Source of the DNA: Candidatus Nealsonbacteria bacterium RIFCSPLOWO2_01_FULL_43_32
GTDB taxonomy: Bacteria; Patescibacteriota; Minisyncoccia; Minisyncoccales; MHMH01
Direction: 5' to 3'
Assembly: GCA_001819335.1 (NCBI GenBank)
Contig: MHMH01000006.1
Coordinates: 1 to 60,591 of the forward strand
Length of the DNA: 60,591 bases
Shown: in pieces, positions 35,593-36,735 of the stretch
Position numbering within the stretch: position 1 is the first letter of the stretch
Layout of the letters: each line of letters starts with the position of its first letter
Made by a program: the position numbers and the translations under genes
Notes under the pieces: generated by a model
Databases searched by the model: none
Told to the model about the DNA's origin: nothing
What the model saw: the letters and a program-made list of their open reading frames with translations, nothing else

Positions 35593-36735
35593 TCAACGCA
35601 AAATCGCCTTTAACTCTTGCTTGGTTTTATTTCTTATTTCTTCCTGGATTTGATTGATTTCGTCGCTCTGGAGAGTTCTTTCCGGGGACCGGTAGACAAT
35701 CCTGAAGGTGTAGCTCTTTTTATCCTTGCCGAATTTTTTTTCGTCTTCGTACTCATCTATCAGCTTAACCTCTTCAATTAGGTTCTGGGCAAAATCCCTG
35801 ACGATTTCGTAATAATTATTCAGATTGATGTTTTTATCGATGACAAAGGAAATGTCTCTGGAAATTTCCGGATATTTGCTCACTTCTTTATACTTACTGT
35901 TGATGTTTTTGAACTGGCTGGTGATTCTGGGGTCGTCAGACCAAAATATTCTGATATCCGGAATCCCCATTTTTATCATGACCAATCTTTCTCCAAATCC
36001 AAATGCCCAGCCATTGTAAACTTCGGGATCCAGGCCGAAGTTTTTTAAAACTATGGGATTTACAAGCCCGGCGCCATTTACCTCCATCCATTCCCCGTTA
36101 AACATAATATCCATCTCAAGACTTTCAATTGTGTAGGGAAAATTGTCATCGATGAATTTGTATTCAATGTCCGGGCCAAAAATTCCCTTGGCCAAATCGG
36201 CTTGGACGTCTTTTAAATCTTCCTGCGTTATAATCTTTTTTGATTTCTTGCAGATAAGCAATCCGTCAATCTGATGGAAAGCCGGATAATGGCTCTTATC
36301 AATTTCATCTTTCCTAAAAACAATCCCGGGGGATAGCGCCTTTATTTCTCCCTCTTTTTCCAATCTTGCCAAAACTTCCGGGTCTTTTAGATAGAAAGAC
36401 CAGAAAGCAGTCGTTTGCGTTCTTAAAAGATGGTTTTCATCTAGGTAATATGTATCGGTTTCTCTTCTGCTGGGATGGTCTTTTGGGGTATTCAAAAGGT
36501 CAAAATCCTGCTCTACTGTAATAATGCGCGGGAAATCAACCAGATCGAAATCTTTAAATCTGGGCAATTTAATTATCTGGTCAATTAAAATTTTGACGGG
36601 AGAATTCTCTTTTTTCGTCAGGTCGGGCAGTTTCAGCAACCTCTTGATCCTTTCCGCTTTAATGTCGTTTCTTTTATTCAATTCTTCGATTAAGGCGTCC
36701 TCTTTTTCGTCTTTGATAACAATGGTTTTGGGCAT
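35593..36735 (-). CDS. pheS: Phenylalanyl-tRNA synthetase, monomeric mitochondrial-like type (PheS core fused to an FDX-ACB domain)
   Basis: Class II motif 3 region GWAFGFGERLVMIKMGIPDIR. C-terminal SKYPEISRDISF...YTFRIVYRSPERTLQSDEIN matches the FDX-ACB anticodon-binding fold. Confidence 0.8.
   Translation of the reverse strand: MPKTIVIKDEKEDALIEELNKRNDIKAERIKRLLKLPDLTKKENSPVKILIDQIIKLPRFKDFDLVDFPRIITVEQDFDLLNTPKDHPSRRETDTYYLDENHLLRTQTTAFWSFYLKDPEVLARLEKEGEIKALSPGIVFRKDEIDKSHYPAFHQIDGLLICKKSKKIITQEDLKDVQADLAKGIFGPDIEYKFIDDNFPYTIESLEMDIMFNGEWMEVNGAGLVNPIVLKNFGLDPEVYNGWAFGFGERLVMIKMGIPDIRIFWSDDPRITSQFKNINSKYKEVSKYPEISRDISFVIDKNINLNNYYEIVRDFAQNLIEEVKLIDEYEDEKKFGKDKKSYTFRIVYRSPERTLQSDEINQIQEEIRNKTKQELKAILR

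What the first reader, a model, noticed from the sequence alone, without database searches (positions are those of the whole stretch)
35593..36735. Mitochondrial-style single-chain phenylalanyl-tRNA synthetase
The 380-aa protein joins a PheS class II catalytic core to a C-terminal FDX-ACB anticodon-binding domain (SKYPEISRDISF...KSYTFRIVYRSPERTLQSDEINQIQEEI). That is the architecture of monomeric mitochondrial PheRS, not the bacterial (alpha-beta)2 enzyme. No pheT is adjacent: tRNAs lie upstream and gyrB downstream. If pheT is absent genome-wide, this bacterium charges tRNA-Phe without the editing beta subunit.
Basis: partly seen in the sequence, partly recalled or inferred. Interest (0 to 1): 0.65.

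Follow-up and report, generated by a model that had tools for sequence, protein, structure and literature searches.

The report
Single-chain mitochondrial-style PheRS in groundwater bacteria
A large group of tiny groundwater bacteria (Parcubacteria/Paceibacteria) carries a one-piece phenylalanyl-tRNA synthetase built like the mitochondrial enzyme, probably in place of the usual two-subunit, proofreading bacterial enzyme, although the absence of the second subunit from whole genomes could not be checked directly here.

Summary
Window 35593..36735 (-) encodes a 380-aa protein with a PheS class II core (E 5.8e-54) fused to a C-terminal FDX-ACB anticodon-binding domain (E 1e-26). It has no PheS N-terminal domain and no beta-subunit domains. 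A confident AlphaFold model (pLDDT 96.4) matches whole-chain human mitochondrial PheRS (TM 0.79).

All class II catalytic invariants are kept. So are the four residues that read anticodon base G34 in mitochondrial PheRS, in 79-82 of 82 orthologues. The gene is single-copy and syntenic among housekeeping genes. It is more conserved than its neighbours (86% identity against 55% for HisRS) and occurs in at least 99 GTDB species of Paceibacteria.

It is not an SrmL "mystery ligase": a true SrmL sits on the same contig in one relative. It forms a bacterial lineage (99% bootstrap) that is not robustly nested in mitochondrial sequences. The window's subclade has a derived one-residue deletion in motif 3.

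No pheT or second pheS occurs in the window or in 1.25 Mb of flanks. Published counts give one PheS-type gene in three of four near-complete MAGs. Genome-wide pheT absence remains untested.

Verdict: a real, probably sole, editing-less PheRS; a new bacterial member of a known kind.

The parts
35593..36735 (-). Complete gene for the 380-aa single-chain PheRS-type protein, stop codon included
   Evidence: ORF list; Pfam; 100% match to P0001 and more than 120 clusters at 80% identity or higher
36625..36735 (-). N-terminal helical region (aa 1-37); short, and not the canonical PheS N-terminal coiled-coil domain PF02912
   Evidence: No PF02912 hit; helices at 10-20 and 25-35 in the AlphaFold model
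35911..36624 (-). Class II PheS catalytic core (aa 38-275)
   Evidence: PF01409, E 5.8e-54; invariant residues R105, R141, H149, E218, G223, G246, R250
36262..36324 (-). Motif 2 region IVFRKDEIDKSHYPAFHQIDG (aa 138-158)
   Evidence: R141, D143, D146, H149, F153, H154, Q155 and D157 are invariant in 82 orthologues
36121..36141 (-). Phe-pocket motif FPYTIES (aa 199-205); derived from the canonical FPFTDPS that 26 orthologues still keep
   Evidence: role of the two aromatic residues from PMC3275996
35983..36012 (-). Motif 3, GWAFGFG-ERL (aa 242-251), with a one-residue deletion relative to G-x-G-x-[DE]-R
   Evidence: The deletion is seen in 67 of 82 orthologues and in none of about 120 other representatives
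35596..35880 (-). FDX-ACB anticodon-binding domain (aa 286-380), preceded by the S286-K287 hinge
   Evidence: PF03147, E 1e-26; hinge and G34-reading residues conserved
35749..35757 (-). D327-E-Y329, equivalent to human mtPheRS Asp364 and Phe366 (hydrogen bonds and stacking on G34)
   Evidence: Mapping through the alignment; D in 81 of 81 and Y/F in 81 of 81; residue roles from PMC7540514
35713..35715 (-). S341, equivalent to human Ser375 (hydrogen bond to O6 of G34)
35596..35598 (-). C-terminal R380, proposed equivalent of human Arg414 (hydrogen bonds to N7/O6 of G34)
   Evidence: R in 79 of 79 orthologues that reach the C-terminus. The equivalence is inferred from position, because the alignment ends before it.
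36760..36797 (-). Two overlapping sigma-70-like promoter matches 25-60 nt upstream of the ATG
   Evidence: Consensus scan only; the number found is not above shuffles
36831..36848 (-). Terminator-like hairpin with a T-run between the tRNA cluster and the gene
35537..35580 (.). Perfect 20-bp palindromic hairpin between the gene's stop codon and the gyrB start

Best explanation
The gene encodes the organism's phenylalanyl-tRNA synthetase, in a single-chain form that works like mitochondrial PheRS.

The class II core (aa 38-275) binds Phe and ATP, forms Phe-AMP and transfers Phe to tRNA-Phe. The C-terminal FDX-ACB domain (aa 286-380), joined through a Ser-Lys hinge, recognises the GAA anticodon, chiefly G34, through D327, Y329, S341 and the C-terminal R380. 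There is no B3/B4 editing domain, so mischarged Tyr- or m-Tyr-tRNA-Phe would not be proofread in cis.

In this Paceibacteria lineage the enzyme most likely replaces the canonical (alpha-beta)2 PheS/PheT.

Shown here: the architecture, the fold, conservation of catalytic and anticodon-reading residues, single-copy housekeeping synteny, and strong purifying selection. Inferred: enzymatic activity, monomeric state, lack of editing, and genome-wide absence of pheS/pheT.
For: - Domain architecture and the top structure matches by sequence.
- An AlphaFold model with pLDDT 96.4 and pTM 0.92. Its best Foldseek hits are closed-state human mtPheRS over the whole chain (TM 0.78-0.79, rmsd about 3 A), while bacterial PheS chains match only the core.
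- Class II invariants are all present.
- The G34-reading residues defined experimentally for human mtPheRS (PMC7540514) are conserved in 79-82 of 82 orthologues.
- A standard tRNA-Phe (GAA anticodon, A73) occurs in a clade genome.
- 26 orthologues keep the fully canonical FPFTDPS, and 15 also keep the full motif 3. The window's variants are therefore drift inside one orthologous enzyme.
- Between the window and relative L001 the protein is 86% identical, against MreB 82, GyrB 77-79, GatA 74, GatB 67 and HisRS 55.
- It is present in at least 99 GTDB species at a conserved housekeeping locus.
- There is no pheS or pheT in the window or in 81 flanking loci totalling 1.25 Mb.
- Anantharaman 2016 Supplementary Data 4 gives 'PheS alpha' = 1 in three of four 90.7-99.9% complete MAGs in which I located this gene.
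- That paper's reduced CPR gene set was chosen because many CPR lack, or have very divergent, single-copy genes, and its table lists PheRS alpha but not beta.
- CPR lineages outside this clade have normal pheS-pheT operons, so the single-chain form is lineage-specific.
Against: - Genome-wide absence of pheT and pheS was not tested directly.
- The single-copy-gene method is not described. The '1' could therefore in principle be a canonical PheS, with this protein left uncounted.
- One MAG (Wildermuthbacteria RIFCSPHIGHO2_12_FULL_40_12) has a count of 2.
- The protein misses the curated cutoffs of TIGR00469 (240.3 against 258.35) and TIGR00468 (171.7 against 237.45), and NCBI PGAP calls it 'hypothetical protein'.
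- The window's subclade has a one-residue deletion in motif 3 that is seen in no other PheS-type protein sampled, and its effect on catalysis is unknown.
- A related single-chain protein occurs in an Oligoflexia MAG. A genome of that kind would be expected, from general knowledge, to have PheST as well, so such proteins can be paralogues.
- There are no biochemical data.
Confidence: 0.7

Rival explanations
1. It is an accessory paralogue that coexists with a canonical PheS/PheT elsewhere in the genome. Possible roles are a back-up or inhibitor-resistant PheRS, or a ligase that supplies aminoacyl-tRNA to a non-ribosomal process, as is suspected for SrmL.
For: Bacterial single-chain PheS-FDX-ACB paralogues exist. 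SrmL is widespread in Parcubacteria and lies beside a LysRS-like paralogue and small-molecule enzymes. A 48%-identical relative occurs in an Oligoflexia MAG. One clade MAG has two 'PheS alpha' counts. pheT absence is untested.
Against: The gene sits in a conserved housekeeping locus (gatCAB, mreB, gyrB, tRNAs), not in a biosynthetic cluster. It is single-copy and found in every clade locus examined. It is under stronger constraint than HisRS or GatB. It keeps the PheRS-specific pocket and G34-reading residues, which true SrmL has changed to HPYT..NG and GLAxG. Three near-complete MAGs have only one PheS-type gene. Keeping three PheRS genes in a genome of roughly 0.5-0.9 Mb would be uneconomical (inference).
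Confidence: 0.17
2. It is the catalytic PheRS but does not act alone. It would work with a separately encoded partner, for example the PheT-N-terminus-like tRNA-binding protein found directly upstream in some relatives, or a free-standing trans-editing factor. The system would then be neither strictly monomeric nor unedited.
For: In 9 of 81 loci a 142-aa tRNA_bind ORF lies 11-30 nt upstream on the same strand. Its best NCBIfam hit is the PheT N-terminus at 153 bits. Free-standing B3/B4-type editing proteins are known (CtdA, abstract of PMC12268091).
Against: The ORF is absent from the window and from 72 other loci. It passes the cutoff of the stand-alone YtpR family, and tyrS lies just upstream of it, so the association may be with tyrS, as in the TapR family. 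No B3/B4 or B5 similarity was found anywhere in the window or the flanks.
Confidence: 0.1
3. The window's copy is catalytically impaired or has changed substrate specificity, because of the motif 3 deletion together with the FPFT-to-FPYT and Pro-to-Glu pocket changes.
For: The deletion lies between the second Gly and the Glu-Arg of motif 3 and is unique among about 120 representatives. The pocket changes co-occur with it in 56 species.
Against: The derived state is fixed in 56 or more species with very high conservation, including an invariant R250, which argues for function. The model around motif 3 is confident (pLDDT 96-98 for residues 231-260). Tyr replaces the second pocket Phe (ttPhe260) in eukaryotic cytosolic PheRS and is described there as a conservative change (PMC3275996). 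Intermediates with FPFTDPS plus the deletion exist.
Confidence: 0.03

Closest known systems
Mitochondrial monomeric PheRS (human FARS2, yeast Msf1; PheRS-M of AARS Online; TIGR00469)
   Same: One chain made of a PheS-type class II core plus a C-terminal FDX-ACB (B8-like) domain. No editing domain. Whole-chain predicted fold TM 0.78-0.79 to 3CMQ/5MGH. The Ser-Lys hinge and the G34-reading Asp, aromatic residue, Ser and C-terminal Arg are conserved.
   Different: It is bacterial and lies in a housekeeping operon context. It is shorter, 380 aa against 405-415 residues in the solved human chains. It scores 240.3, below the 258.35 cutoff. It forms a separate lineage with other metagenomic proteins (99% bootstrap) that is not robustly inside the mitochondrial group. 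The window subclade has a one-residue motif 3 deletion and FPYT.ES.
SrmL, 'PheS-related mystery ligase' (NCBIfam NF051887)
   Same: A bacterial single-chain PheS-like core with a C-terminal extension aligned to the same region. It is the top NCBIfam hit by score (253 bits) and is common in Parcubacteria.
   Different: The cutoff of 300 is not met, whereas true members score 400-442. SrmL has HPYTxNG, GLAxGxGLDR and often PHQ where this protein has the PheRS pocket. SrmL is a separate clade with 100% bootstrap. A true SrmL lies on the same contig as a window-type gene in L050, in a cluster with a LysRS-like paralogue.
Canonical bacterial PheRS (alpha-beta)2, PheS/PheT, including the CPR version in Woykebacteria
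   Same: A homologous catalytic core (34-38% identity to E. coli PheS) and an FDX-ACB domain homologous to the PheT C-terminus.
   Different: There is no PF02912 N-terminal domain. The anticodon-binding domain is fused to the alpha-type chain. There are no B3/B4, B5 or catalytic-like beta modules. It is not in the thrS-infC-rpmI-rplT-pheS-pheT cluster that canonical CPR genomes keep.

Membership tests
Monomeric mitochondrial-type PheRS (PheRS-M / TIGR00469) | PheS-type class II catalytic core | tested here: met
   PF01409, E 5.8e-54; class II invariants present
Monomeric mitochondrial-type PheRS (PheRS-M / TIGR00469) | FDX-ACB anticodon-binding domain fused to the C-terminus of the same chain | tested here: met
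   PF03147, E 1e-26, residues 286-380
Monomeric mitochondrial-type PheRS (PheRS-M / TIGR00469) | Curated whole-protein score cutoff of TIGR00469 (258.35 bits) | tested here: not met
   240.3 bits. Nearest relative P0121 scores 264.3, and P0133, P0136 and P0140 score 260-308, so they pass.
Monomeric mitochondrial-type PheRS (PheRS-M / TIGR00469) | Two-domain fold like hmtPheRS | tested here: met
   Model pLDDT 96.4; TM 0.78-0.79 to 3CMQ, 5MGH and 8P8X
Monomeric mitochondrial-type PheRS (PheRS-M / TIGR00469) | G34-recognition residues (Asp364, Phe366, Ser375, Arg414 in the human enzyme) | tested here: met
   D327, Y/F329, S341 and R380 are conserved in 79-82 of 82 orthologues
Monomeric mitochondrial-type PheRS (PheRS-M / TIGR00469) | Acts without a beta subunit (no pheT in the genome or compartment) | tested here: inconclusive
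   No pheT in the window or in 1.25 Mb of flanks. One PheS-type gene in three of four near-complete MAGs. Whole genomes could not be read.
Monomeric mitochondrial-type PheRS (PheRS-M / TIGR00469) | Monomeric state and Phe-tRNA-Phe synthesis | not testable with these tools
   Needs biochemistry
SrmL (NF051887) | Curated cutoff of 300 bits | tested here: not met
   253 bits, against 400-442 for true members
SrmL (NF051887) | Family-specific active-site signature (HPYTxNG, GLAxGxGLDR) | tested here: not met
   The window has FPYTIES and GWAFGFGERL; a separate clade with 100% bootstrap
Canonical bacterial PheS alpha subunit (TIGR00468) | Curated cutoff of 237.45 bits and the PF02912 N-terminal domain | tested here: not met
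   171.7 bits; no PF02912 hit
Canonical bacterial PheS alpha subunit (TIGR00468) | Partner pheT, usually adjacent | tested here: not met
   Not adjacent, and not within 60 kb. Canonical CPR genomes have pheS-pheT adjacent.

The most novel reading that the evidence does not exclude
A whole class-level bacterial lineage (Paceibacteria/Parcubacteria) has discarded the (alpha-beta)2 PheRS with its editing site and translates Phe codons with a monomeric, proofreading-free enzyme. The single-chain design would then be a bacterial invention shared by this lineage, SrmL and other prokaryote-sized metagenomic forms, from which mitochondrial PheRS descends, rather than a eukaryotic innovation.
Probability: 0.3. 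Interest if true: 0.75.

Novelty: new member of a known kind. Interest (0 to 1): 0.55.

Why it matters
[quoted passage not shown] Under that scheme bacterial PheRS is an (alpha-beta)2 heterotetramer with a beta-subunit editing site, and the monomeric form belongs to mitochondria.

If these bacteria rely only on this enzyme, they are a natural bacterial case of PheRS without cis-editing. That bears on how much Tyr and m-Tyr misincorporation a cell can tolerate, and on genome streamlining: about 1.1 kb of gene replaces about 3 kb. It also affects genome-completeness marker sets, which would miss pheT, and possibly pheS, in this lineage.

It also bears on where mitochondrial PheRS came from. In the rough tree, all single-chain forms group together against canonical PheS (100% bootstrap, though with only three outgroups).

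Practically, NCBI's pipeline labels the gene 'hypothetical protein' because it falls between three curated cutoffs. An essential function is therefore being left unnamed in hundreds of MAGs.

Tried and rejected
1. **Literature.** Ten full-text searches were run, on SrmL, monomeric or mitochondrial-type PheRS in Patescibacteria, CPR or Parcubacteria, pheT plus CPR, and PheRS-M. None found a paper describing a bacterial single-chain PheRS.

2. **Apparent second PheS-like hit in L001.** This was rejected. It was E. coli pheS from L002, which is stored in the same file.

3. **SrmL membership.** Rejected.

4. **Contig-length and locus-tag matching.** A search with a canonical CPR PheS (P0220) was meant to detect canonical pheS on clade contigs. 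It returned only Woykebacteria and Saccharimonadales relatives, with no match, so it is uninformative for the clade.

5. **Empty-site test.** The canonical CPR order is thrS-infC-rpmI-rplT-pheS-pheT. The window and clade loci hold thrS but no infC, rpmI or rplT, so the test could not be made.

6. **Upstream tRNA_bind ORF as a pheT remnant.** Not upheld. It passes the stand-alone YtpR cutoff and sits next to tyrS.

7. **tRNA-Phe linkage.** It is not consistently adjacent. tRNA-Thr or tRNA-Met/Asp lie upstream instead.

8. **Wildermuthbacteria count of 2.** The SrmL search did not list that MAG by name. It did show that SrmL is annotated as 'PheRS alpha chain'.

9. **Metagenome scan with P0133.** It gave only three fragmentary loci.

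Full report
**Observation**

Pfam finds exactly two domains. The PheS-type class II core, tRNA-synt_2d, covers residues 38-275 (E 5.8e-54). The ferredoxin-fold anticodon-binding domain, FDX-ACB, covers residues 286-380 (E 1e-26). Both are far above their gathering scores.

Neither the PheS N-terminal coiled-coil domain (PF02912) nor any beta-subunit module is present. By sequence, the closest solved structures are human mitochondrial PheRS chains (E about 3e-57), ahead of bacterial PheS alpha chains (about 5e-42). PheT chains match only through their C-terminal domain.

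The neighbours are as stated: tRNA-Asp, tRNA-Met and tRNA-Met upstream and gyrB downstream. A phmmer scan of the six-frame translation of the whole window with E. coli PheS and PheT hits only this ORF.

**Which curated family it belongs to**

NCBIfam ranks three models, and the protein reaches none of their cutoffs:

| Model | Score (bits) | Cutoff (bits) |
|---|---|---|
| NF051887, 'PheS-related mystery ligase SrmL' | 253 | 300 |
| TIGR00469, pheS_mito | 240.3 | 258.35 |
| TIGR00468, pheS | 171.7 | 237.45 |

This explains why NCBI's pipeline labels relatives 'hypothetical protein', while JGI calls them 'phenylalanyl-tRNA synthetase alpha chain' and UniProt and the Brown 2015 annotation call them 'phenylalanine-tRNA ligase'.

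An exhaustive HMMER search of 1.84 billion cluster representatives, followed by alignment and family scans, separates the single-chain proteins into groups:

- True SrmL proteins score 415-442 bits. They carry a different active-site signature (HPYTxNG, GLAxGxGLDR, often PHQ).
- The window protein instead keeps the PheRS pocket (FPYT), FHQ and GWAFG.
- In relative L050, a true SrmL (400 bits) lies 8 kb from the window-type gene on the same contig. It sits beside a LysRS-like paralogue, a PLP decarboxylase, a methyltransferase and two dCTP-deaminase-like genes.

The two are therefore different proteins with different contexts. SrmL membership is rejected.

**Structure and functional residues**

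An AlphaFold2 model built on an 84-sequence alignment is very confident (mean pLDDT 96.4, pTM 0.92). Foldseek against the PDB puts closed-state human mtPheRS first over the whole chain: 3CMQ, 5MGH and 8P8X, with TM 0.78-0.79 and rmsd about 3 A over 388 columns. Bacterial PheS chains align only with the catalytic half.

The positions invariant across the A2 alignment are R105, R141, H149, E218, G223, G246, R250, D260 and R262 in window numbering. They include the motif 2 and motif 3 arginines.

For human mtPheRS, G34 of the anticodon is read by Asp364 (essential), Phe366 (Tyr731 in Thermus), Ser375 and Arg414, with a hinge at Ser322-Lys323 (PMC7540514). Through the alignment these map as follows:

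| Human residue | Window residue | Conservation in orthologues |
|---|---|---|
| Asp364 | D327 | 81 of 81 |
| Phe366 | Y329 | Y or F in 81 of 81 |
| Ser375 | S341 | 81 of 81 |
| Arg414 | R380 (C-terminal) | 79 of 79 |
| Ser322-Lys323 | S286-K287 | S in 82 of 82; K in 78 and R in 4 of 82 |

The Arg414 equivalence is positional, because the alignment ends before it. A clade genome (L052) encodes a standard tRNA-Phe with a GAA anticodon and an A73 discriminator. The protein thus has what is needed to activate Phe and to recognise tRNA-Phe in the manner of mtPheRS. It has no editing module.

**An unexpected feature and its resolution**

The window protein and its closest relatives have motif 3 as G-F-G-E-R. 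That is one residue shorter than the G-x-G-x-[DE]-R found in every one of about 120 other representatives, including E. coli PheS, mitochondrial PheRS and the 48%-identical P0121. They also have FPYT.ES in place of FPFT.PS.

Across 82 orthologues these states form a stepwise series:

| Pocket motif | Motif 3 | Number (window + 81 loci) |
|---|---|---|
| FPFTDPS | full | 15 |
| FPFTDPS | deletion | 11 |
| FPYT.[EQ]S | deletion | 56 (includes the window) |

The oddities are therefore derived drift within one orthologous enzyme whose basal members have fully canonical PheRS motifs. The motif 3 arginine (R250) stays invariant. Tyr replaces the second pocket Phe (ttPhe260) in eukaryotic cytosolic PheRS and is described there as a conservative change (PMC3275996). 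The HQxDG variant (Asp for Glu) also occurs in other groups. I regard loss of function as unlikely. The kinetic consequence of the deletion is unknown.

**Distribution, context and constraint**

- More than 120 clusters at 80% identity or higher exist in public data, and all named ones are Patescibacteria.
- A scan of one genome per GTDB species found 99 species. The best 80 are Paceibacteria/Parcubacteria-type MAGs (Staskawicz-, Nealson-, Wildermuth-, Taylor- and Moranbacteria, plus some mislabelled bins) at 67-91% identity. They include a complete 876-kb chromosome.
- The gene is single-copy in every locus. It sits among housekeeping genes: mreB, gatC, gatA, tRNAs and then gyrB.
- In the window it looks like its own transcription unit. 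A terminator-like hairpin follows the tRNA cluster, promoter-like hexamers precede the ATG, and a perfect 20-bp hairpin precedes gyrB. These are consensus matches only.
- Between the window and relative L001 the protein is 86% identical. The comparison values are NusG 93, MreB 82, GyrB 77-79, GatA 74, GatB 67 and HisRS 55. This is very strong purifying selection for an aaRS.
- The window's organism occurs in groundwater and soil metagenomes.

**Is it the only PheRS?**

This is the crux, and I could not read a whole clade genome with the tools available.

*Direct negative evidence*
- There is no pheS or pheT in the 60.6-kb window.
- There is none in the 81 flanking loci (1.25 Mb), searched with E. 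coli PheS and PheT, a CPR PheS and two CPR PheTs.
- If gene positions were independent, about two encounters would be expected by chance, so this evidence is weak.

*Canonical PheRS elsewhere in the CPR*
- CPR lineages outside this clade (Woykebacteria and relatives) keep the classical cluster thrS-sua5-infC-rpmI-rplT-pheS-pheT. Their PheT is 656-672 aa and lacks B1/B2.
- Canonical PheRS is therefore not generally lost in the CPR.
- The clade loci hold thrS but not infC, rpmI or rplT, so an empty-site test was not possible.

*Published gene counts*
- Anantharaman et al. 2016, Supplementary Data 4, tabulates 43 single-copy genes per genome, including 'Phenylalanyl tRNA synthetase alpha'.
- For the four Rifle MAGs in which I located this gene, the count is 1 in three: Staskawiczbacteria RIFOXYD1_FULL_32_13 (97.7% complete), Staskawiczbacteria RIFOXYB1_FULL_38_37 (99.9%) and Taylorbacteria RIFCSPHIGHO2_02_FULL_46_13 (90.7%).
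- The count is 2 in Wildermuthbacteria RIFCSPHIGHO2_12_FULL_40_12.
- If the pipeline counted the single-chain protein, those three genomes have no canonical PheS, and hence no canonical (alpha-beta)2 enzyme. An identical protein was annotated 'Phenylalanine-tRNA ligase' by the same group.
- The count of 2 could be an SrmL. SrmL is common in Parcubacteria and is annotated as 'PheRS alpha chain'. I could not confirm that for this MAG.

*Caveats on those counts*
- The paper says the 43-gene set was chosen because many CPR lack, or have too divergent, some single-copy genes. PheRS beta is not in the set.
- The detection method is not stated, so this evidence is supportive and not decisive.

Taking constraint, context, universality in the clade and genome economy together, I put about 0.7 on 'sole PheRS, no PheT'. 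I put about 0.85 on 'functional PheRS'.

**A possible partner**

In 9 of 81 loci, one subclade that does not include the window, a 142-aa tRNA_bind ORF lies directly upstream on the same strand. Its best NCBIfam hit is the N-terminus of PheT (153 bits). However, it passes the cutoff of the stand-alone YtpR family. NCBIfam also defines a tyrS-associated relative (TapR), and tyrS is the gene upstream of it. I treat its link to this enzyme as unresolved.

**Relationships**

I built a neighbour-joining tree of the catalytic core with 100 bootstraps, using only three canonical PheS sequences as outgroups.

| Grouping | Bootstrap |
|---|---|
| Window clade with five other metagenomic proteins (P0121, P0122, P0124-P0126; one from an Oligoflexia MAG) | 99% |
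| SrmL monophyletic | 100% |
| All FDX-ACB-bearing single-chain forms together, against canonical PheS | 100% |
| Mitochondrial-like group plus SrmL, excluding the window clade | 58% |

The 420-500-aa representatives are true eukaryotic mitochondrial enzymes: Msf1 of Schizosaccharomyces, Branchiostoma, Coemansia and Salpingoeca. They are interleaved with many 340-400-aa proteins from long metagenome contigs, several of which pass the pheS_mito cutoff.

This is compatible with a single origin of the fused design, and with bacterial single-chain lineages being older than or sister to the mitochondrial enzyme. The method is crude, however, and the taxonomy of those short forms is unknown.

**Verdict**

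The gene is best explained as a bacterial, mitochondrial-style, editing-less PheRS that serves as the housekeeping enzyme of a large Paceibacteria lineage.

It is a new bacterial member of a known kind (monomeric PheRS), with a lineage-specific motif 3 deletion. It is already present in databases under automatic names, but it is not described in any paper I could find.

The decisive missing step is a profile search for pheS and pheT in the complete clade chromosome OY969557.1 and the near-complete MAGs, followed by a charging assay.

Noticed in passing
window 31257-35528 (-); inteins at about 33735-35357 and 31905-32537: gyrB encodes 1423 aa and carries two inteins. A large one of about 541 aa lies in the ATPase domain (residues about 58-598, Intein_splicing E 5.9e-41). 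A mini-intein of about 211 aa lies before Toprim (residues about 998-1208, weak PT-HINT hit). The orthologue in relative L001 is 646 aa and has no inteins.
   Followed up: partly
L050 13117-19031: A true SrmL 'mystery ligase' (400 bits) lies beside a LysRS/EpmA-like class IIb paralogue, a PLP-dependent decarboxylase, a SAM methyltransferase and two dCTP-deaminase-like genes. It looks like a small biosynthetic or modification cluster in a Patescibacterium. SrmL has 1620 relatives at E of 1e-30 or better, and the named hits are Parcubacteria-type MAGs.
   Followed up: partly
L013, L016, L025, L029, L030, L031, L032, L033, L070 (for example L033 9561-9989): A 142-aa tRNA_bind ORF resembling the PheT N-terminus lies between tyrS and the single-chain PheRS gene in one subclade. 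It passes the YtpR cutoff and is absent from the window.
   Followed up: partly
window 35537-35580: A perfect 20-bp inverted repeat with a 4-nt loop lies in the 64-nt spacer between the PheRS gene and gyrB. It is palindromic, so it could act on either strand.
   Followed up: no
window 26760-28208 (-): A 482-aa fusion protein has MtrA-like, thymidylate-synthase-like and PterinBD-DUF4346 domains. It is conserved in relative L001 at only 34% identity.
   Followed up: no
window 57234-58886 (-): AlaRS is only 550 aa, with the catalytic and second additional domains. That is much shorter than the roughly 870-aa bacterial AlaRS known from E. coli (own knowledge), so the C-terminal part appears to be missing.
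   Followed up: no
window 20333-21685 (+) and 18786-20375 (+): A 450-aa protein combines DUF5667 with a Kazal-type protease-inhibitor motif. Next to it is a 529-aa ORF with no Pfam match, directly downstream of thrS.
   Followed up: no
L066, L069, L078 (orthologues of 400-406 aa): Some orthologues are about 20 aa longer. In L066, the one read, the extra segment lies inside the FDX-ACB domain (...DFVPMTKSSRILDGKAVGTENFVPIIEEV...).
   Followed up: no
L072 5738-5816: ARAGORN calls a 79-nt 'tRNA-Phe' with the anticodon AAA. This is unusual and may be a miscall.
   Followed up: no
L083-L085: Woykebacteria-type CPR genomes keep the E. coli-like order thrS-(sua5)-infC-rpmI-rplT-pheS-pheT. Their PheT (656-672 aa) lacks the B1/B2 domains, which agrees with Mukai et al. 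2017.
   Followed up: yes
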